IMG/VR virus record: IMGVR_UViG_2537561978_000012
Coordinates: 1-10,097 of that record
Length of the DNA: 10,097 nt
Direction: 5' to 3' (one strand)
Source: a virus
Taxonomy: Duplodnaviria; Heunggongvirae; Uroviricota; Caudoviricetes
This document shows positions 1,177 to 6,832 of the stretch, in pieces. How positions within the stretch are numbered: position 1 is the first letter of the stretch; every line of letters begins with the position of its first letter. Made by a program: the position numbers and the translations under genes. The notes beneath the pieces are model-generated. The model was given only the letters and a program-made list of their open reading frames with translations. It was not told the DNA's origin and did not search any database.

Positions 1177-1521
1177 TCAGAACTCTTCGATGTTCCAGCC
1201 GCCACCTGCTTTCTTTGGTTTAACCGTTACCCCGATGATTCGGAACGGATACTGATCTGCGGCTACTTTGGTTTTCACTCTGGCGTCGTCGGTCCAGAAA
1301 CCTTTCACTTCGTGCAGTTCCATCTCTCCGGTGGCGAGCATCACAGCGAAATCGGGCGTATAGAACGTGTTGTCAGCTAACCGCAGCTTAATACCCTCGA
1401 ATAGATACCAGGCGATTTCCCCTGCACGTTTACGCTGCTCAAGGTGCTGGCAATACGCAGATTCTGTTTTGTTCATCTGGCCTGTTTTGAGTCGACCAAG
1501 AGCCTGTATCTGTTTTCTCAT
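1177..1521 (-). CDS. DUF1064-like PD-(D/E)XK-fold protein (putative nin-region nuclease)
   Basis: ATG at 1521..1519. An AGAGG Shine-Dalgarno sits inside the operator palindrome at 1525-1539. Protein has a PD...E.HEVKG arrangement (YTPDF ... ELHEVKG) typical of small PD-(D/E)XK nucleases; overall resembles the about 115 aa DUF1064 phage proteins as I recall them. Confidence 0.55.
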   Translation of the reverse strand: MRKQIQALGRLKTGQMNKTESAYCQHLEQRKRAGEIAWYLFEGIKLRLADNTFYTPDFAVMLATGEMELHEVKGFWTDDARVKTKVAADQYPFRIIGVTVKPKKAGGGWNIEEF

Positions 1522-1524
1522 GAT

Positions 1525-1601
1525 TTACCTCTAAGGTAATTAAAAACCACATAAGACACGAAATCAATAGAGTTTAGAATATTTTATTACCTCACAGGTA
1601 A
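1525..1601 (-). promoter_or_regulatory. Operator pair plus candidate leftward promoter for the nin-like operon
   Basis: Two perfect TTACC-N5-GGTAA palindromes at 1525-1539 (TTACCTCTAAGGTAA) and 1587-1601 (TTACCTCACAGGTAA), 62 bp centre to centre. On the minus strand a TAAAAT -10-like hexamer immediately follows the 1587-1601 site, and a TTGATT / TTTAAT pair lies between the sites. The 1525-1539 site covers the Shine-Dalgarno and abuts the ATG at 1521. Confidence 0.55.
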
Positions 1602-1611
1602 TTATCGAGAC

Positions 1612-1633
1612 GTAAAAAAATGCGCTATCGCGC
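1612..1633 (-). terminator. Weak intrinsic-terminator-like element downstream of the P-like gene
   Basis: On the minus strand, immediately after the stop at 1641..1639: GCGC-GATA-GCGC hairpin (4 bp GC stem) followed by a T7 run (plus-strand A7 at 1614-1620). Stem is short, so strength is doubtful. Confidence 0.3.
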
Positions 1634-1638
1634 TGGTA

Positions 1639-2415
1639 TTACTTGATAAATCCTGCCGCCTTTCCCCGCCTGTATTCCTCCATCAGCCACTGCGCCGGTG
1701 TTATTCCCCCAAGGGTGGCGGCGTTAGGCATGCACCCGAAACTTCGCCCTGGTGGATGGTAAACGTCTCTCCCTGTGTCCGGAGGCGTACTCATGGGTTC
1801 TGGCTTTGCCTGTATGCTGATCACCGGATCCGGTATCTGCTGTCCGGAAGCCACCTTTTTCGCCCAATCATCGAGCAGCCTGCGCGCGTGTTTCTCAACC
1901 TCAATCTCGCTAAGCTGGCGCTGATACATTGCACGGCGGGTATCACATACGACCCAGTACATAACCGGATGTCGCCACGGGAATCTTTCGGGACCACCAG
2001 GATATAAACTTTTTTCCTTGCTGTACCGGTGAAACTCCGCCATCACATCGTCAATGGTGACGCCAAGAACCATCTTGCTGTCTTTACACCACTTGATGAA
2101 TTGCCCTGGCGACGGCCAGAACGGAGACTCACTGGCGCGGGCGTGGCGCATACCAGCGTTAACCTGTTCCATTGTAGTGATCCCATTCTCCAGAAACGCA
2201 AGCATCCATTGCTTACGGAATTCATTAAGTTTGTTCTGCTCCCTTATGGTCGAAACGCTTGCGGGAAATGCAGCCTGTAACTGGACAAATAGTTCATTGA
2301 AAATTCTAGCGACCTGCTCCTTTTTGCCATTGCTGTCACGCCGCTCTTCATGCACAGCAACACCATGCTCACGTAAGCGATCGTACTCATTGAGAAGTTC
2401 TGGAGTTGATTTCAT
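1639..2415 (-). CDS. Lambda P-like replication protein (DnaB helicase loader)
   Basis: 258 aa. Long collinear similarity to lambda P as I recall it: AAFPASV...NEFRKQWMLAFLENGITTMEQVNAGMRHAR...PFWPSPGQFIKWCKD versus lambda ATFPASL...NEIRRQWVLAFRENGITTMEQVNAGMRVAR...PFLPSPGQFVAWCRE. ATG at 2415..2413 with an AAGGGG Shine-Dalgarno; start overlaps the 3' end of the upstream O-like gene. Confidence 0.85.
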   Translation of the reverse strand: MKSTPELLNEYDRLREHGVAVHEERRDSNGKKEQVARIFNELFVQLQAAFPASVSTIREQNKLNEFRKQWMLAFLENGITTMEQVNAGMRHARASESPFWPSPGQFIKWCKDSKMVLGVTIDDVMAEFHRYSKEKSLYPGGPERFPWRHPVMYWVVCDTRRAMYQRQLSEIEVEKHARRLLDDWAKKVASGQQIPDPVISIQAKPEPMSTPPDTGRDVYHPPGRSFGCMPNAATLGGITPAQWLMEEYRRGKAAGFIK

Positions 2416-3217
2416 CCCACACCCCTTCTATCCAGTCAGTGTTATTCCAGTCAAGCTCATCGCTTTTCCCGGCGTTTTTTGATTTTCCCCTGATATGATT
2501 TACGTGCCTGGCGAATTTTTGTTCCCACTGAACCTGCGTGAACACTTTGCCCTCAGCCATCCAGTAATCCCGGAATGCAGCAAGTTCAGCAGGTGTAAAT
2601 TCCGGTTCCGGCAGGGCCGTTCCCCACAGCGCAGCACGCCGTCGAAAATCCGGCGACGGATGCCAGCCATCGGTCATCGGAAATTTCCCGATGGGTTCAC
2701 TCAGGCCATCCAGAAATTCAGGTTCAGCCACCTGCAACGGCATACCGTTCGCTTCACTGGTCGGAGCACCCTCGCGCACGTGCGCTATGTGTGGGGTTTT
2801 ATATATATCTTCCTCTTCCTCTTCCTCTGGTAACTCCTTTTGTAACGCTGTTGGCGTTACTTTTTGCGTTACTCGTTTTCGATGCTCTGCCACTCTTCTA
2901 TTCGTAAGTGCACGTTTTTTCGATGATTCTCCATTGTGTCGCTCAAAGTTTGGAAGAATTAGTTTGCCGTCATGATAAGCAAGCCATCCGACGCTAATGA
3001 GGGCGTCAGCAAATCCTGTAATAAAAGCGAGTCTATCAAGTACTCCTTTTGTAACGCTGCCAGCGTTACCGTCTATTGTTTGCTGGTCAGCCCATGCCCA
3101 TATACGAACCAGCTTTCCAAGAACAGCATCTGGATCAATACCCAGAATTTCTGCTATCTGAAAAATTTCAGGTTTATCAGGAGTGATAACTTCAACCTTA
3201 ATCCAGCTGCTTGCCAT
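2387..3217 (-). CDS. O-like replication initiator (HTH N-terminus, acidic linker, DnaT-like C-terminus; tentative)
   Basis: Track ORF is 2387..3235 beginning at a GTG. I prefer the ATG at 3217..3215 (MASSWIKVEV...) because GAGGGG lies about 7 nt upstream. Sits immediately upstream of and overlapping the P-like gene, carries an EEEEEE linker and internal iteron-like DNA repeats. Not similar in sequence to lambda O; assignment rests on position and architecture. Confidence 0.65.
   Translation of the reverse strand: MASSWIKVEVITPDKPEIFQIAEILGIDPDAVLGKLVRIWAWADQQTIDGNAGSVTKGVLDRLAFITGFADALISVGWLAYHDGKLILPNFERHNGESSKKRALTNRRVAEHRKRVTQKVTPTALQKELPEEEEEEDIYKTPHIAHVREGAPTSEANGMPLQVAEPEFLDGLSEPIGKFPMTDGWHPSPDFRRRAALWGTALPEPEFTPAELAAFRDYWMAEGKVFTQVQWEQKFARHVNHIRGKSKNAGKSDELDWNNTDWIEGVWDEINSRTSQ
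2797..3069. repeat. Iteron-like repeat array inside the O-like gene (candidate replication origin)
   Basis: Two perfect 19-bp palindromes GTAACGC-N5-GCGTTAC at 2842-2860 and 3051-3069, each preceded by the identical 18-mer ACTCCTTTTGTAACGCTG (2833-2850 and 3042-3059). Extra GCGTTAC half-site at 2866-2872; CGTTTT(TT)CGATG direct repeats at 2874-2884 and 2913-2925; (TA)-rich tract TTTTATATATAT at 2797-2808; (CTTCCT)3 at 2809-2826. Confidence 0.5.
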
Positions 3218-3410
3218 AGGTTTCCCCTCTTGCACTCTTTAGTGCACAAGCAAATTCATTACGATGGCGGTTGGCGCTATTCATTGCACATTCAACACAT
3301 GTTCCGTTCAGAACATACCTTTCAGAGAGATGGCCGTGACGGCACCGCTTTCCTGTGAAATAGCGATTTAACCCGGCTTTTGCGGCCTCCATTCTGGTTA
3401 CTATCTTCAA
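3198..3410 (-). CDS. Small zinc-ribbon-like protein at the cII position (hypothetical)
   Basis: Track ORF starts at a TTG (3410..3408) with an AAGAGG Shine-Dalgarno about 9 nt upstream; alternative ATG at 3392..3390 (MEAAKAG...) has no obvious Shine-Dalgarno. Contains C-x-H-x-H ... C-x2-C (KRCRHGH...CVEC). Its 3' end overlaps the O-like start region. No similarity to lambda CII noted. Confidence 0.45.
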   Translation of the reverse strand: MKIVTRMEAAKAGLNRYFTGKRCRHGHLSERYVLNGTCVECAMNSANRHRNEFACALKSARGETYGKQLD

Positions 3411-3517
3411 TTTTTCCGCCTCTTTTTGTTATTGATATTGGCTATTTTGCACAATTGGAAAATTTGATCAACCAGATTTGGTTTTTTATTACCTTTGAGG
3501 TACGAATAGATATGAAA

Positions 3518-3537
3518 AGACCGCCGGGTGGCGGTCT
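3518..3537 (-). terminator. tR1-position hairpin (possible partial terminator / attenuator)
   Basis: Perfect 8-bp stem AGACCGCC / GGCGGTCT with loop GGGT, located between the Cro-like gene end (3559) and the zinc-ribbon gene. On the minus strand it is followed by TTTCATATC, a weak U-tract. No T-run on the plus strand. Confidence 0.35.
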
Positions 3538-3558
3538 ACAGAGGGTTGTAGCTGGATA

Positions 3559-3789
3559 TCATGAGTAGAAGAAGTATGCCAGTTCTGCTTTTGAGCGCAG
3601 CCATTGTCTTGTTTTACAGGCTTTAAAAAGCCCATTCATCAATACTTTACCTGGCATTTTGCGCTTACCTGTTAAGTGAGTCTGGATATAGTGACTCGTC
3701 GTTCCGGCTTCCTGTGCGAAGGCTTCACGCTCATCCGGAGTAAGTGCAAGCCAGTGCTTTTTGAAATCGAAATGTCCGTTATCGCTCAT
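3559..3789 (-). CDS. Cro-like small HTH regulator
   Basis: 76 aa; ATG at 3789..3787. First gene leftward from the divergent operator region, facing the repressor gene. Predicted helix-turn-helix around EAFAQEAGTTSHYIQTHLTGKR. Position and size match a Cro analogue; no direct similarity to lambda Cro. Confidence 0.55.
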   Translation of the reverse strand: MSDNGHFDFKKHWLALTPDEREAFAQEAGTTSHYIQTHLTGKRKMPGKVLMNGLFKACKTRQWLRSKAELAYFFYS

Positions 3790-3821
3790 AGCTATTGCCT
3801 GATATTTATTTCAGATAATAA

Positions 3822-3888
3822 ATATTCACCCATAAGGTAACAAAAATCAAGGATAGTTACCTATGAGGTGCATTTACCTGTTGGGTAA
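3822..3888. promoter_or_regulatory. OR-like tripartite operator with divergent promoters
   Basis: Site C 3874-3888 TTACCTGTTGGGTAA (perfect); site B 3857-3871 TTACCTATGAGGTGC (left half perfect, right half 3/5); site A 3826-3840 TCACCCATAAGGTAA (one mismatch). Candidate leftward promoter on the minus strand: -35 TTGATT (plus 3845-3850), 17-bp spacer, -10 GAATAT (plus 3822-3827), with site A inside the spacer/-10. The rightward repressor promoter is not confidently located; TAATAT at 3886-3891 is a candidate -10. Confidence 0.6.
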
Positions 3889-3943
3889 TATTGCTTTAAA
3901 TTGAATCATCTACTGATTCATATATGAGGCGATTTTCCAGAAA

Positions 3944-4528
3944 ATGAAAAGTATCCAGGACGTCCGCAGGCAAAATCTCAACGACTTGATCGACCGTGAA
4001 TTCAATGGTGTTCAGACGCGGATGGCAGAAAAACTTGGAACTCAGGCAAATCTGGTAAACCGCTGGGCTCTTGGCAAGAAGGTTATCGGCGACCAGGTTG
4101 CGCGAAAAATTGAAGCTGCCGCCAATAAACCCCGTAACTGGCTTGATATCGATCGCTCGCTTTCTCAGGAGGGGTTTCAGCCTGTCGGCCCAAGCGACAT
4201 TGGTCAGCTGGCGGCTCACAACCTGGAACGCTGGATGAGCGAAAGCCGCGACCTTTCAACGCAGGGAAAACTACACCGCGCATCCGGCGTCGCCCAGGTG
4301 ACAATCAGCCGCCTGTTAAACAATGAAGTCAGCGTTTCCATTTCCACCCTAGAGAATGTTGCATCCGCATTCGGGCGTCACGGCTATGAATTACTGATTC
4401 ACCCGCACGACCCTGCGACTATCAACTATGACCGCTCGCGCTACGCATTGTTACCCGAAACAGAGAAGGCAAAGATCGAAAGTTACATTGAATTTGTCAT
4501 CAGCCAGAACGAAAGAAGCAAACAATAA
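3944..4528 (+). CDS. Prophage repressor, CI-position, dual helix-turn-helix, no S24 peptidase domain
   Basis: 194 aa. First ATG of the frame at 3944, in-frame stop upstream at 3914-3916, no convincing Shine-Dalgarno. Two HTH-like segments: MAEKLGTQANLVNRWALGKK (N-terminal) and LHRASGVAQVTISRLLNNEVSVSISTL (C-terminal). No Ala-Gly / Ser...Lys autocleavage module evident. Divergent from the Cro-like gene, followed by a terminator and then the pL-like promoter, i.e. the lambda cI layout. Confidence 0.7.
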   Translation: MKSIQDVRRQNLNDLIDREFNGVQTRMAEKLGTQANLVNRWALGKKVIGDQVARKIEAAANKPRNWLDIDRSLSQEGFQPVGPSDIGQLAAHNLERWMSESRDLSTQGKLHRASGVAQVTISRLLNNEVSVSISTLENVASAFGRHGYELLIHPHDPATINYDRSRYALLPETEKAKIESYIEFVISQNERSKQ

Positions 4529-4548
4529 AACTATAGTTTTCAGTAAGT

Positions 4549-4573
4549 AAGCCGCCTCATGGCGGCTTTTTTA
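4549..4573 (+). terminator. Rho-independent terminator after the repressor gene (tImm-like)
   Basis: AAGCCGCC-TCAT-GGCGGCTT hairpin (GC-rich 6-8 bp stem) followed directly by a T-run at 4567-4572, 21 nt after the TAA stop at 4526-4528. Confidence 0.75.
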
Positions 4574-4585
4574 TTGCCAACAAGA

Positions 4586-4662
4586 TTACCTTATGGGTAA
4601 TTTTTTTAACTCATATCTATTGACATCAAACCAAATACGCATAATTATTACCTCAACGGTAA
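4586..4662 (+). promoter_or_regulatory. pL-like early promoter flanked by two perfect operators
   Basis: Perfect palindromes at 4586-4600 (TTACCTTATGGGTAA) and 4648-4662 (TTACCTCAACGGTAA). Between them a consensus -35 TTGACA at 4620-4625 and an A/T-rich -10 candidate (AATTAT, 4643-4648) after a 17-bp spacer. The downstream site overlaps the -10 and start region. Confidence 0.65.
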
Positions 4663-4681
4663 CAGACCGAGGTAACAAGTT

Positions 4682-4834
4682 ATGCAGTGGAAAATCATCA
4701 ACGGTTGGTACTGCGTTACTGCATGCGGATTCATGAGCTGGAAGTTCCGCACCTTACAGGAAGGCATTAAGTGGGCTTTCGTCAGCAAAGAAGCTCGCGA
4801 TGTGGCCAACGATAACGAGATATGGGAGGGCTGA
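4682..4834 (+). CDS. Untracked small ORF (50 aa), first gene of the pL-like operon
   Basis: ATG at 4682 preceded by GAGGT at 4669-4673 (8-nt spacing); TGA at 4832-4834, two nucleotides before the next ATG. Hand translation: MQWKIINGWYCVTACGFMSWKFRTLQEGIKWAFVSKEARDVANDNEIWEG. Missing from the track only because it is shorter than the shortest listed ORF. Not Arg-rich, so not N-like. Confidence 0.4.
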   Translation: MQWKIINGWYCVTACGFMSWKFRTLQEGIKWAFVSKEARDVANDNEIWEG

Positions 4835-4836
4835 TA

Positions 4837-5136
4837 ATGAACGTTAATCAGCAGAAAAATCTTCAAAAAATCATGCTGGCATTCGACAAGGACTACCGCC
4901 TGTCAGAACAGCTATATGACCGACAAGTTGAACTGATTGAGAGCATCCGACTTCATCAACTGTCCTCAACTTTCGACGTTGTAACAGGCAAAGGCGTTCG
5001 TCAGGAAGTGCTGGAGGCTGCTAAAGACAGCCCTGAGTTCGAAGAACTGATGGATTCCTACCGGCGCGAGGCAATGGCAATTATAGCGCGCTGGGATCTG
5101 GCGGATCAGCTTGATGGGCAGAGGGAAGCGGCATGA
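4837..5136 (+). CDS. Hypothetical protein (99 aa) immediately upstream of the exonuclease
   Basis: Track ORF 4822..5136 begins at a non-ATG codon; ATG at 4837 (MNVNQQ...) follows a GGGAGGG Shine-Dalgarno. Stop overlaps the exonuclease start (ATGA at 5133-5136). No family recognised. Confidence 0.6.
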   Translation: MNVNQQKNLQKIMLAFDKDYRLSEQLYDRQVELIESIRLHQLSSTFDVVTGKGVRQEVLEAAKDSPEFEELMDSYRREAMAIIARWDLADQLDGQREAA

Positions 5137-5954
5137 AACCGGGAATTTATTTCGACATCAGCAACGAAGACTACCACGCCGGTGACGGCGTGAGTAAGTC
5201 GCAACTGGACATGGTTGCCAAGAATCCGGCGCTTCTTAAATGGGTTCAGGCAGCACCAGAAGACGAAGAGAAAAAGTCTGCACTGGATATGGGAACCGCA
5301 TTGCACTGTCTGCTTCTGGAGCCTGGAGAATTCGACAAACGCTTCATTGTTTCACCGAAGTTCGATCGTCGGACGAAACAAGGTAAAGCTGACGAAGAGG
5401 CATTTCTTCGTGATGTGGCGGATATGGGGATTACGGTACTTGATGCCGAGCAGTGGCGGAAACTGGAGCTGATGCGTGATAGCGCAATGGCTCACCCGGC
5501 GGCACGCTGGATGTTGGAAGCACCTGGTTACTGCGAAGCGTCAATGTACTGGAACGATGAAGAAACGGGTGAGTTGTGCCGAATTCGTCCAGACAAATGG
5601 CTGAACGAGCACAACGTGATCATCGACGTGAAAAAGGTTGCAGATATGGACCGTTTTGCACGTCACATCGAGGAATTCCGCTACCACGTGCAGGACGCAA
5701 TGTACCGCGAAGGCGCAATGAGGGTTACTGGTCAGCCGCATGGTTTTTTCTTTCTTGCCGTGAGCGAAAGCATTGATTGTGGTCGGTATCCGGTACGCGT
5801 GTTCGAGCTGGATGCGCCGGATGTCGATGCCGGGCACGCTCTGTTCCGCCGGGATCTGAATACCTATCACGAATGCCGCATCAACGATGAGTGGGGCGGA
5901 GTGGAAATTATTAAACGCCCTGACTGGGCACGTAAACAGGATATGTACGTATGA
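5133..5954 (+). CDS. RecE-like PD-(D/E)XK 5'-3' exonuclease (exonuclease VIII-like domain)
   Basis: 273 aa; nuclease motif arrangement RPD ... IIDVKK (D ... D-x-K). Sits directly upstream of, and is translationally coupled to, the annealase (ATGA overlap at 5951-5954). Not similar to lambda Exo as I recall it. Confidence 0.7.
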   Translation: MKPGIYFDISNEDYHAGDGVSKSQLDMVAKNPALLKWVQAAPEDEEKKSALDMGTALHCLLLEPGEFDKRFIVSPKFDRRTKQGKADEEAFLRDVADMGITVLDAEQWRKLELMRDSAMAHPAARWMLEAPGYCEASMYWNDEETGELCRIRPDKWLNEHNVIIDVKKVADMDRFARHIEEFRYHVQDAMYREGAMRVTGQPHGFFFLAVSESIDCGRYPVRVFELDAPDVDAGHALFRRDLNTYHECRINDEWGGVEIIKRPDWARKQDMYV

Positions 5955-6832
5955 GCAATGATATCGCAATCACATCACAACCAGGCGCAACTGTAGGCAC
6001 TGCTGCGGCAATCTTCAGCCCCGAGGGAATGAATCAACTGGTGCGTTTCGCTGAGTTGATGTCACAAAGCAAAGCGACTGTACCGAAACATCTTGAAGGC
6101 AAACCTGCCGATTGCCTGGCGGTGACCATGCAGGCGGCACAGTGGGGAATGAACCCTTTCGCCGTGGCGCAGAAAACGCATGTGGTAAACGGAACGTTAG
6201 GCTACGAAGCACAGTTGGTAAACGCGGTCGTATCCTCGTCAAGCCTGCTGGCGACACGCCTGAATTATCGCTGGAGCGGTGACTGGTCGAATGTTAACGG
6301 CAAAACAGATAAATCACCGAATCTGACGGTAACTGTGTCAGCAGTTCTTAAAGGAGAAGCAGAACCACGTGAGCTTACCATCAGTATGGCGCAAGCCGGA
6401 GTGCGTAACTCTCCATTGTGGGAACAGGATCCTCGCCAGCAGCTTGCCTATCTTTGCACGAAACGATGGGCTCGCCTGCACGCTCCTGATGTACTTCTCG
6501 GTGTTTACACCCCTGACGAATTACAGGAAACGGCACCGCGCGTTGAACGAGACATTACTCCGCAAACAACTACTGCTGCGGGAATGAACAGTCTGATCAA
6601 CGCTAAACCAGTGAAAAAGCCTGATGAGCAAACGCGTAAAGCGGATAGCCGTGATCCAGAAGAAATGCTGATGGCCTTTACCAGCGCAGCGATGAATTAC
6701 AGCACTGTCTCCGAACTGGATAAGGCTTACAAATACATTGCACAAAAACTTTCAGATGATGACGAACTGCTGGCAAAAGCAACCGACGTTTACAGCGTTC
6801 GTCGGGAAGAATTAAACGAAACATCTATGTAA
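5951..6832 (+). CDS. Bet/Red-beta-family single-strand annealing protein
   Basis: 293 aa. Collinear matches to lambda Bet as I recall it: AAQWGMNPF versus ANQYGLNPW, and PRVERDITP versus QPERDITP, with a similar hydrophobic core between. Confidence 0.75.
   Translation: MSNDIAITSQPGATVGTAAAIFSPEGMNQLVRFAELMSQSKATVPKHLEGKPADCLAVTMQAAQWGMNPFAVAQKTHVVNGTLGYEAQLVNAVVSSSSLLATRLNYRWSGDWSNVNGKTDKSPNLTVTVSAVLKGEAEPRELTISMAQAGVRNSPLWEQDPRQQLAYLCTKRWARLHAPDVLLGVYTPDELQETAPRVERDITPQTTTAAGMNSLINAKPVKKPDEQTRKADSRDPEEMLMAFTSAAMNYSTVSELDKAYKYIAQKLSDDDELLAKATDVYSVRREELNETSM

What the first reader, a model, noticed from the sequence alone, without database searches (positions are those of the whole stretch)
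3826..4662. Perfect TTACC-N5-GGTAA palindromes define the operator motif of the immunity region
The 15-bp dyad TTACC-N5-GGTAA occurs with all ten specified positions matching at 3874-3888, 4586-4600 and 4648-4662, plus near-perfect copies at 3826-3840 and 3857-3871. Every copy is intergenic and positioned on a candidate promoter (a -35 TTGACA at 4620-4625; a TTGATT-17-GAATAT leftward promoter around 3822-3850). The layout mirrors lambda OR (three sites between divergent repressor and cro-like genes) and OL (sites around the early promoter after a terminator). A fixed 10-position pattern is expected by chance about once per million positions, so five perfect copies in 10 kb is far beyond chance, though the motif was defined post hoc. 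Which protein binds (the dual-HTH repressor or the Cro-like protein) is not resolved.
Basis: seen in the sequence. Interest (0 to 1): 0.6.

Follow-up and report, generated by a model that had tools for sequence, protein, structure and literature searches.

The report
Known repressor operators of epsilon15-like prophage
The repeated TTACC-N5-GGTAA palindromes are real and almost certainly the binding sites of this phiV10/epsilon15-like prophage's main repressor, but the same motif is already annotated as repressor-binding in phage epsilon15 and the homologous repressor has been studied in phage SPC32H, so this is an ordinary rediscovery.

Summary
TTACC-N5-GGTAA occurs five times perfectly in the window, against 0 expected. 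Two it missed lie at 1525 and 1587. Conserved degenerate copies lie at 3489, 3826 and 3857. All eight are intergenic.

The window is the early region of a phiV10/epsilon15-like temperate podophage (genus Uetakevirus), about 98% identical to published phages. The epsilon15 GenBank record already annotates this dyad as "protein_bind: repressor". The 194-aa gene at 3944-4528 is a full-length homologue of SPC32H Rep (PDB 5D50, E 4.5e-42), which the literature describes as binding palindromic sites as a tetramer.

The half-sites and the layout are unchanged in ten relatives whose Rep is only 41-78% identical. The resemblance to lambda is only superficial. Rep has no autocleavage domain. Sites occur at promoters across the whole genome, late operons included. 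Two window promoters share one cassette: terminator, operator, 19 bp, -35, 17 bp, -10 abutting a second operator, with the two dyads 62 bp apart.

Novelty: already known. Interest: low. The fixed 62-bp spacing, which suggests looping, and a Rep-type-specific spacer composition are the only points I could not find documented.

The parts
1525..1539 (.). Operator O_A-down, perfect dyad TTACCTCTAAGGTAA. It abuts the -10 of the leftward promoter and contains the Shine-Dalgarno (GAGGT on the minus strand) of the DUF1064 gene that starts at 1521.
1587..1601 (.). Operator O_A-up, perfect dyad TTACCTCACAGGTAA, 62 bp from O_A-down
1539..1567 (-). Leftward promoter P_A: -35 TTGATT (1567..1562), 17-nt spacer, -10 TTTAAT (1544..1539). 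Same cassette as P_D.
   Evidence: read (CTATTGA invariant in 18 cassettes); inferred, not mapped
1612..1631 (-). Weak putative intrinsic terminator (GCGC-GAUA-GCGC followed by U7) after the P-like replication gene. phiV10 annotates a terminator in this same intergenic gap.
   Evidence: -8.7 kcal/mol, z -1.8
3489..3503 (.). Operator-like site O_B, 1 mismatch (TTACCTTTGAGGTAC). It is degenerate in all four aligned relatives and lies upstream of a leftward TTGATC -35 (3471..3466).
3518..3537 (-). Intrinsic terminator after the 3559-3789 gene
3559..3789 (-). 76-aa small HTH protein (phiV10 gp41 / epsilon15 gp39 homologue) in the Cro position. Possible second binder of the dyads.
3822..3850 (-). 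Leftward early (lytic) promoter: -35 TTGATT (3850..3845), 17-nt spacer, -10 GAATAT (3827..3822)
   Evidence: -35 invariant in 10 genomes; inferred
3826..3840 (.). Operator O_C3, 1 mismatch (TCACCCATAAGGTAA). It covers the spacer and the edge of the -10 of the leftward promoter.
3857..3871 (.). Operator O_C2, 2 mismatches (TTACCTATGAGGTGC), 31 bp from O_C3 and 17 bp from O_C1
3874..3888 (.). Operator O_C1, perfect dyad TTACCTGTTGGGTAA, nearest to rep
3944..4528 (+). rep: 194-aa lysogeny repressor, full-length homologue of SPC32H Rep (PDB 5D50). By that homology it has an N-terminal HTH DNA-binding domain, a middle HTH_3-like dimerisation domain and a C-terminal tetramerisation/antirepressor-binding domain.
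4549..4568 (+). Intrinsic terminator after rep
4586..4600 (.). Operator O_D-up, perfect dyad TTACCTTATGGGTAA, ending 19 bp upstream of the -35
4620..4648 (+). Rightward early promoter P_D: TTGACA, 17-nt spacer, AATTAT. It drives the 4682 ORF, the recombination genes and the genes beyond them.
4648..4662 (.). Operator O_D-down, perfect dyad TTACCTCAACGGTAA. It starts on the last base of the -10 and lies 62 bp from O_D-up.

Best explanation
The dyads are the operators of the prophage's lysogeny repressor Rep, the 194-aa product of 3944-4528.

The N-terminal HTH domains of Rep recognise the TTACC half-sites of (A)TTACC-N5-GGTAA(T). By homology with SPC32H Rep, the active form is a tetramer whose DNA-binding domain pairs come from different dimers.

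In the window Rep would shut off three promoters directly.
- The leftward early promoter at 3850..3822, through O_C3, which lies over its spacer and -10. O_C2 and O_C1 lie upstream and probably also set rep's own expression.
- The rightward recombination-operon promoter at 4620-4648.
- The leftward promoter at 1567..1539.

The last two are each bracketed by an upstream and a -10-abutting operator exactly 62 bp apart, and each is preceded by a terminator. A degenerate site at 3489-3503 lies upstream of a fourth promoter.

Shown here: the sites, their statistics, their conservation, the promoter cassette and the Rep homology. Inferred: actual binding, which promoter elements are used, and occupancy order. 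Induction would be by an antirepressor encoded outside the window, not by RecA-stimulated autocleavage.
For: - Motif statistics: 5 perfect sites against 0 expected. All 8 credible sites lie in the roughly 16% non-coding DNA.
- The epsilon15 record AY150271.2 annotates 7 'protein_bind: repressor, lysogeny' features. Each coincides with a perfect TTACC-N5-GGTAA. They include the orthologues of the window's 4586, 4648 and 1587.
- Rep is homologous to SPC32H Rep 5D50 over residues 1-190, E 4.5e-42. The stretch NLVNRW, which I infer to lie in the recognition helix, is invariant in the four aligned Rep proteins.
- The literature states that SPC32H Rep binds palindromic sites as a tetramer (PMC9638917). 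It also gives Rep an N-terminal DNA-binding domain, a middle dimerisation domain and a C-terminal tetramerisation domain (PMC9986798).
- Overexpressing the identical repressor of phage ZX5 abolished free phage and cut holin transcription by 99.97% (PMC9782041).
- Phylogenetic footprint: half-sites are invariant and spacers variable in Tyrion, epsilon15 and SPC32H and in six prophages from other genera (Rep 41-74% identical), with the same layout.
- 18 promoter cassettes share O_up, 19 bp, CTATTGA (-35), 17 bp, -10 abutting O_down.
Against: - No binding experiment exists for this phage's Rep on these sites. I could not read the primary SPC32H and epsilon15 papers (not held), so the exact operator DNA used experimentally is not verified here.
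- The epsilon15 annotations are predictions.
- The rep promoter itself could not be located convincingly. The best candidate is TTTACC-18-TAAATT, an 8/12 match.
- A second HTH protein (3559-3789) is encoded next to the sites and could share them or be their main ligand during lytic growth.
Confidence: 0.85

Rival explanations
1. The dyads, at least the three in the divergent region, are mainly or additionally the targets of the 76-aa HTH protein encoded at 3559-3789. That protein would act as a Cro-like lytic repressor, or a CII-like activator, competing with Rep for the same sites.
For: - The protein sits in the Cro position and is transcribed divergently from rep.
- It matches PHROG 35 'transcriptional repressor' at E 5.6e-13.
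- The AlphaFold model (pLDDT 87.7) is a five-helix Xre/Cro-type HTH domain. Its nearest solved folds are YdaS of prophage CP-933P (TM 0.64), P22 c2, 434 repressor and R-M controller proteins.
- It shares 27% identity with the Rep N-terminal domain across the HTH.
- It is far more conserved than Rep between the phiV10 and epsilon15 types (76% against 43%), in parallel with the invariant half-sites.
Against: - No Foldseek hit reaches E<0.001, and there is no Pfam or PDB sequence match.
- Its putative recognition helix (TTSHYIQTH) differs from Rep's (TQANLVNRW).
- All database homologues are 'hypothetical protein'.
- Nothing shows that it binds DNA. Even if it does, that would add to Rep binding rather than replace it.
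Confidence: 0.3
2. The dyads act at the RNA level as small hairpins (attenuators, processing sites or terminators), not as protein-binding DNA.
For: Each dyad can form a 5-8 bp hairpin. Several lie in 5' leaders (1525-1539, 4648-4662). One includes a Shine-Dalgarno sequence.
Against: - The hairpins are weak (-3.5 to -6.5 kcal/mol), A/T-rich and lack a U tract.
- About half the sites lie upstream of the -35 and would not be transcribed from their own promoter.
- Across more than 60 distinct sites the stem sequence itself is invariant, with no compensatory changes. That is the signature of base-specific protein recognition, not of selection for pairing.
- Real G+C-rich terminators sit next to them.
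Confidence: 0.03
3. The sites are replication-origin iterons or recombinase/packaging sites rather than transcriptional operators.
For: The 1525/1587 pair lies just downstream of the DnaT-like and lambda-P-like replication genes. In relatives one degenerate copy lies near attP/int, and copies precede the terminase gene.
Against: - The sites are dispersed at a fixed register on sigma-70-type promoters throughout the genome, not clustered at one locus.
- They are dyads, not direct repeats.
- The epsilon15 annotators assign separate 10-bp integrase sites.
Confidence: 0.03

Closest known systems
Repressor-binding sites annotated in Salmonella phage epsilon15 (GenBank AY150271.2; Kropinski et al. 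2007, Virology 369:234, not readable here)
   Same: - The half-sites are identical (TTACC-N5-GGTAA, usually with A/T flanks) and the genus is the same.
- The positions are orthologous. The two sites around the promoter downstream of rep correspond to the window's 4586 and 4648. The annotated site after the replication genes corresponds to the window's 1587.
- The pair spacing is the same 62 bp.
   Different: - The window's Rep is only 43% identical to epsilon15 Rep.
- epsilon15 has a third site 76 bp further downstream that the window lacks.
- The epsilon15 record leaves the two perfect dyads of the rep-gp39 divergent region unannotated.
- The epsilon15-type spacer is almost purely A/T. The window type favours T at position 6 and often has G/C at positions 7 and 9.
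Rep/Ant antirepression switch of Salmonella phage SPC32H (Kim & Ryu 2013 J Virol; Kim et al. 2016 PNAS; PDB 5D50, 5D4Z)
   Same: - The repressor is homologous over its full length, E 4.5e-42.
- The operator layout in the SPC32H genome is the same.
- Published summaries describe tetrameric binding to palindromic sites and inactivation by an antirepressor.
   Different: - The window holds no antirepressor gene.
- The closest annotated complete relative, ZX5, carries a different antirepressor of the Bro-N type.
- Whether the window's Rep is inactivated in the same way was not tested.
Lambda/P22/434 OR and OL operators with the CI-Cro switch
   Same: - Three dyad sites of graded match lie between divergent repressor and small-HTH genes.
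- Operators overlap the early promoters.
- The repressor uses an Xre-type HTH.
   Different: - There is no LexA/S24 autocleavage domain.
- Adjacent site spacing is 17 and 30/31 bp.
- Operator pairs 62 bp apart bracket the promoters.
- Operators also sit at late and accessory operons genome-wide.
- Each early segment is insulated by a terminator and has its own repressible promoter.
Rco of Bacillus plasmid pLS20 (looping repressors with a TetDloop domain)
   Same: PMC9986798 reports that SPC32H Rep has the same C-terminal tetramerisation fold, which in Rco drives DNA looping. The fixed 62-bp operator pairs seen here would suit bridging by one tetramer.
   Different: Looping by Rep has not been shown. 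Rco loops over longer distances and uses several tetramers.

Membership tests
Uetakevirus (epsilon15/SPC32H-type) Rep operators | A 15-17 bp dyad (A)TTACC-N5-GGTAA(T) | tested here: met
   5 perfect and 3 degenerate intergenic copies. The same pattern underlies all 7 annotated epsilon15 sites.
Uetakevirus (epsilon15/SPC32H-type) Rep operators | A neighbouring gene encodes a homologue of the characterised Rep (PDB 5D50) over its full length | tested here: met
   phmmer E 4.5e-42 over residues 1-190 of 194. NLVNRW, inferred to lie in the recognition helix, is invariant in the four aligned Rep proteins.
Uetakevirus (epsilon15/SPC32H-type) Rep operators | Sites lie at orthologous, syntenic positions relative to rep, the replication genes and the recombination genes | tested here: met
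   Alignments A1-A4 and ten genomes
Uetakevirus (epsilon15/SPC32H-type) Rep operators | Rep physically binds the sites and represses the overlapping promoters | not testable with these tools
   Only indirect support: ZX5 repressor overexpression and literature summaries for SPC32H
Lambda-type CI/Cro OR-OL switch | Three operator sites between divergently transcribed repressor and cro genes | tested here: met
   3826, 3857 and 3874 lie between 3789 (-) and 3944 (+)
Lambda-type CI/Cro OR-OL switch | The repressor carries a LexA-like (Peptidase_S24) autocleavage/dimerisation domain | tested here: not met
   Pfam finds only HTH-type domains. The homologue has a dimerisation domain and a tetramerisation/antirepressor-binding domain.
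Lambda-type CI/Cro OR-OL switch | A Cro protein binds the same operators with reversed preference | tested here: inconclusive
   The 3559-3789 product has an Xre/Cro-like fold. There are no significant matches and no binding data.
Lambda-type CI/Cro OR-OL switch | Operators are confined to two early promoters, with later genes reached by antitermination | tested here: not met
   Sites lie at 8 or more separate intergenic regions, including ones before the terminase, portal and tailspike genes, in ZX5, epsilon15 and SPC32H. Terminators precede the operator-promoter modules in the window.
Intrinsic terminator / RNA hairpin element | A stable G+C-rich stem followed by a U tract, with stem pairing rather than sequence conserved | tested here: not met
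   -3.5 to -6.5 kcal/mol and no U tract. The half-site sequence is invariant across more than 60 sites.

The most novel reading that the evidence does not exclude
The invariant 62-bp (about six helical turns) centre-to-centre spacing of operator pairs bracketing a promoter occurs 19 times in 11 sequences, against one case each of 61 and 63 bp. It may reflect a single Rep tetramer bridging both dyads through its two trans-paired DNA-binding domain pairs, wrapping the promoter in a tight micro-loop. In addition, immunity specificity between phiV10-type and epsilon15-type repressors may be encoded in the inner spacer positions 6-7 rather than in the shared TTACC half-site. As far as I could check, neither point is documented.
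Probability: 0.3. Interest if true: 0.45.

Novelty: already known. Interest (0 to 1): 0.2.

Why it matters
The result matters mainly for annotation. phiV10-like prophages are common in E. coli: 83 of 5,426 complete genomes carry at least 80% of this window. In the three annotated relatives whose features I inspected over this region (phiV10, ZX5, Tyrion), no operator is annotated. Transferring the epsilon15/SPC32H operator model gives a ready map of the Rep regulon and of the promoters that must be de-repressed for induction.

The conserved promoter cassette with 62-bp operator pairs is a compact, portable repressible promoter design. It is also a concrete, testable hint that Rep works by bridging or looping. 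Nothing here changes current understanding of phage repression.

Tried and rejected
- I tried to read the three primary papers: Kropinski 2007 (PMC2698709), Kim & Ryu 2013 (PMC3807360) and Kim 2016 PNAS (PMC4983836). None is held. My recollection that the epsilon15 paper gives the consensus ATTACCWDWWNGGTAAT could not be verified (a search for that string found nothing) and is used only as a lead.
- Two literature searches returned mostly irrelevant hits.
- The viral-contig scan with the Rep alignment returned only 98-99% identical loci and added no diversity. The genome-contig scan was the informative one.
- The promoter scan suggested TCGATA-16-TAAAAT (1608..1581) for the leftward promoter of the 1525/1587 region. 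I rejected it in favour of TTGATT-17-TTTAAT (1567..1539), because only the latter is conserved and in register with the other 17 cassettes.
- A partner site 62 bp downstream of 3489-3503 does not exist.
- No LexA box is present in the window.
- The RNA-hairpin and iteron readings were considered and rejected; see the rival explanations.
- The rep promoter could not be assigned with confidence.

Full report
**What the window is.** Bases 3400-5000 are 97-98% identical to the temperate podophages HEMP4, vB_EcoP_ZX5, TL-2011b and phiV10 (genus Uetakevirus). They are about 77% identical to Enterobacter phage Tyrion. The phiV10 annotation and Pfam/PHROG scans give the following gene map.
- DUF1064 gene, 1177-1521 (-)
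- lambda-P-like replication gene, 1639-2415 (-)
- DnaT-like gene, 2387-3235 (-)
- small gene, 3198-3410 (-)
- 76-aa gene, 3559-3789 (-)
- repressor, 3944-4528 (+)
- two small genes, then the recombination genes and an integrase gene at the right end

This prophage type is common. 83 complete E. coli genomes cover at least 80% of the window.

**The observation.** TTACC-N5-GGTAA occurs perfectly at 1525, 1587, 3874, 4586 and 4648, with none in 200 shuffles. With up to 2 mismatches there are 12 hits against 2.77 expected. The extra intergenic ones are 3489 (1 mismatch), 3826 (1) and 3857 (2). The four remaining 2-mismatch hits are inside genes and match the chance expectation. Its 'five perfect copies' is true of the window but not of its own list, and it missed the pair at 1525/1587. 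All eight credible sites lie in the roughly 16% of the window that is non-coding.

**The motif is already known in this genus.** The epsilon15 GenBank record carries seven 'protein_bind: repressor (lysogeny)' features. Every one coincides with a perfect TTACC-N5-GGTAA. epsilon15 has 11 perfect copies in 39.7 kb, and 15 copies with up to 1 mismatch against 0.6 expected at that threshold. SPC32H has 9 perfect copies and ZX5 has 11, each with well under one expected.

In ZX5, which is about 98% identical to the window over 3400-5000, all 11 are intergenic. They lie around the antirepressor/tail-fibre region, at the four early-region positions seen in the window, just before the small terminase gene, and before the portal operon. 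The regulon therefore spans the whole genome, not only the immunity region.

**Which protein binds.** The 194-aa product of 3944-4528 matches SPC32H Rep (PDB 5D50) over residues 1-190 at E 4.5e-42. Published summaries make two points.
- SPC32H Rep binds palindromic DNA as a tetramer, with the DNA-binding domain pairs coming from different dimers, and it is disassembled by the antirepressor Ant (PMC9638917).
- Its architecture is an N-terminal DNA-binding domain, a middle dimerisation domain and a C-terminal tetramerisation/Ant-binding domain with a p53/Rco-like 'TetDloop' fold (PMC9986798).

The N-terminal HTH stretch NLVNRW, which I infer to lie in the recognition helix, is invariant in the four aligned Rep proteins (window, Tyrion, epsilon15, SPC32H), which are otherwise 43-78% identical to the window's. 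Overexpressing the identical ZX5 repressor abolished free phage and cut holin transcription by 99.97% (PMC9782041). Rep lacks any S24 autocleavage domain, and the window has no LexA box.

**Conservation.** Alignments of all four intergenic regions with Tyrion, epsilon15 and SPC32H show the half-sites and the -35 elements invariant while the 5-bp spacers and the surrounding DNA drift. A scan of one genome per species found six more prophages, in Superficieibacter, Erwinia dacicola, Klebsiella, two Citrobacter species and Scandinavium. Their Rep is 41-74% identical to the window's, and they have the same motif and the same layout. More distant homologues that share only the N-terminal domain (Hydrogenovibrio, Paraburkholderia) lack the motif. 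Because the half-site sequence itself is fixed, with no compensatory variation, and the hairpins would be weak (-3.5 to -6.5 kcal/mol), an RNA-structure explanation is unlikely.

**Anatomy in the window.**

*Divergent region (3790-3943).* O_C1 is at 3874-3888 (perfect), O_C2 at 3857-3871 and O_C3 at 3826-3840. Spacings are 17 and 31 bp. O_C3 covers the spacer and the edge of the -10 of the leftward promoter TTGATT-17-GAATAT (3850..3822), whose -35 is invariant in ten genomes. The weak half of O_C3 (TCACC/GGTGA) is conserved as weak, which suggests graded affinities. I could not assign the rep promoter. The best candidate, TTTACC-18-TAAATT (3873-3902), is only an 8/12 match and would overlap O_C1.

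*Two copies of one cassette.* Extracting 18 such modules from nine sequences shows a fixed design: intrinsic terminator, O_up, 19 bp, CTATTGA(C/T/A) as the -35, a 17-bp spacer, and a -10 whose last base is the first T of O_down.
- Window copy 1 is 4549-4662 on the + strand: terminator 4549-4568, O_up 4586, TTGACA 4620, AATTAT 4643, O_down 4648.
- Window copy 2 is 1631..1525 on the - strand: a weak terminator at about 1631..1612, O_up 1601..1587, TTGATT 1567..1562, TTTAAT 1544..1539, O_down 1539..1525.

In copy 2 the GGTAA half of O_down also supplies the Shine-Dalgarno sequence of the DUF1064 gene.

*Single degenerate site.* The site at 3489-3503 follows the terminator at 3518-3537 and precedes a TTGATC -35.

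Across 11 sequences, neighbouring-site spacings cluster sharply: 62 bp 19 times (61 and 63 once each), 17-18 bp eight times, 30-31 bp five times and 76 bp four times.

**Mechanism.** The best-supported reading is direct, promoter-by-promoter repression by tetrameric Rep. Every early segment is insulated by a terminator and has its own Rep-controlled promoter. This differs from lambda's two promoters plus antitermination.

The strict 62-bp spacing, about six turns, places both dyads on the same face of the helix. A Rep tetramer has two DNA-binding domain pairs and a looping-type tetramerisation fold. One tetramer bridging each pair is therefore an attractive but untested inference.

**The small protein at 3559-3789.**
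- It matches PHROG 35 'transcriptional repressor'.
- It has no Pfam or PDB sequence match.
- It has only 'hypothetical' homologues, within a narrow enterobacterial family.
- It is predicted with good confidence (pLDDT 87.7) to be a five-helix Xre/Cro-type HTH domain.
- The nearest folds are YdaS, P22 c2, 434 repressor and R-M controller proteins, but none is statistically significant.
- It is weakly similar to Rep's own N-terminal domain across the HTH.
- It is much better conserved than Rep.

It is a reasonable Cro-like candidate that may share the operators. This remains open.

**One possibly new detail.** The half-sites are identical in both Rep lineages, but the spacer is not.
- Window-type sites: T at position 6 in 65% of half-sites, A in 6%, and G/C at position 7 in 59%.
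- epsilon15-type sites: A at position 6 in 49%, and G/C at position 7 in only 10%.

The residues just before NLVNRW also differ, TQA against RSQ. Immunity specificity might therefore lie in the inner positions. The sites are phylogenetically non-independent, so this is a lead, not a result.

**Verdict.** The binder is largely resolved as Rep. The lambda analogy is superficial. The feature is already known for the genus, so interest is low.

Noticed in passing
window 1519-1539: The GGTAA half of the operator at 1525-1539 doubles as the Shine-Dalgarno sequence (minus strand TTACCTTAGAGGTAAATCATG) of the DUF1064 gene. CATGATTTACC is invariant in four phages, so repressor binding and translation initiation signals overlap.
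   Followed up: partly
window 4658-4675: An extra GGTAAC half-site at 4671-4676 repeats the right half of the 4648-4662 operator 13 bp downstream (GGTAACAGACCGAGGTAAC). It lies in the ribosome-binding region of the 4682 ORF. It may simply be the SD sequence.
   Followed up: no
L002 (epsilon15) 24704, 33341, 33358, 35969: Four of the 11 perfect dyads in epsilon15 are not annotated as repressor sites in its GenBank record. They include both perfect dyads in the rep-gp39 divergent region. The two divergent-region dyads each have one non-consensus flanking base outside the 15-mer, so a strict 17-bp pattern may have missed them. The record places an IHF site at 33307-33329 in the same rep-gp39 intergenic region.
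   Followed up: partly
sites pooled from window, L002-L005, L086-L091: Spacer composition differs by repressor lineage. phiV10-type sites favour T at position 6 and G/C at positions 7/9, whereas epsilon15-type spacers are almost purely A/T. The residues just before the conserved NLVNRW stretch of Rep differ in parallel (TQA against RSQ). This may be the basis of immunity specificity.
   Followed up: partly
L005 (Tyrion) about 4620-4650: An 11-bp insertion duplicates a half-site in the upstream operator (ATTACCTGACAATTACCCCACAGGTAAT). A perfect dyad and its register relative to the -35 and the downstream operator are nevertheless preserved.
   Followed up: no
L002 26882, L003 26960, L004 8026 (outside the window, beyond its right end): A conserved 1-mismatch dyad (TTACCTTAAAGGTAT; TTACCCTAAAGGTAT in epsilon15) lies just upstream of the integrase gene near attP in epsilon15, SPC32H and ZX5. 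In epsilon15 it overlaps an annotated integrase arm site. Rep may also control int.
   Followed up: no
window 5133-6832: The recombination module is read here as two overlapping ORFs (5133-5954 and 5951-6832). By homology with ZX5 these are an exonuclease VIII/RecE-like gene and a RecT recombinase gene. The phiV10 record instead annotates a single fused 'recET' gene of 1,761 bp.
   Followed up: no
window 3559-3789: The small HTH protein family is confined to enterobacterial Uetakevirus-like prophages (48 clusters, 62-100% identical). It is labelled 'hypothetical' wherever a source names it, although a five-helix HTH fold is predicted with confidence.
   Followed up: yes
L092-L096: Proteins in Paraburkholderia, Hydrogenovibrio and Thiomicrospira share only the first 70 or so residues (the DNA-binding domain) with Rep, at 35-40% identity. 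Their loci hold no perfect TTACC-N5-GGTAA; the only near-match is one 1-mismatch 15-mer in the Thiomicrospira locus.
   Followed up: partly
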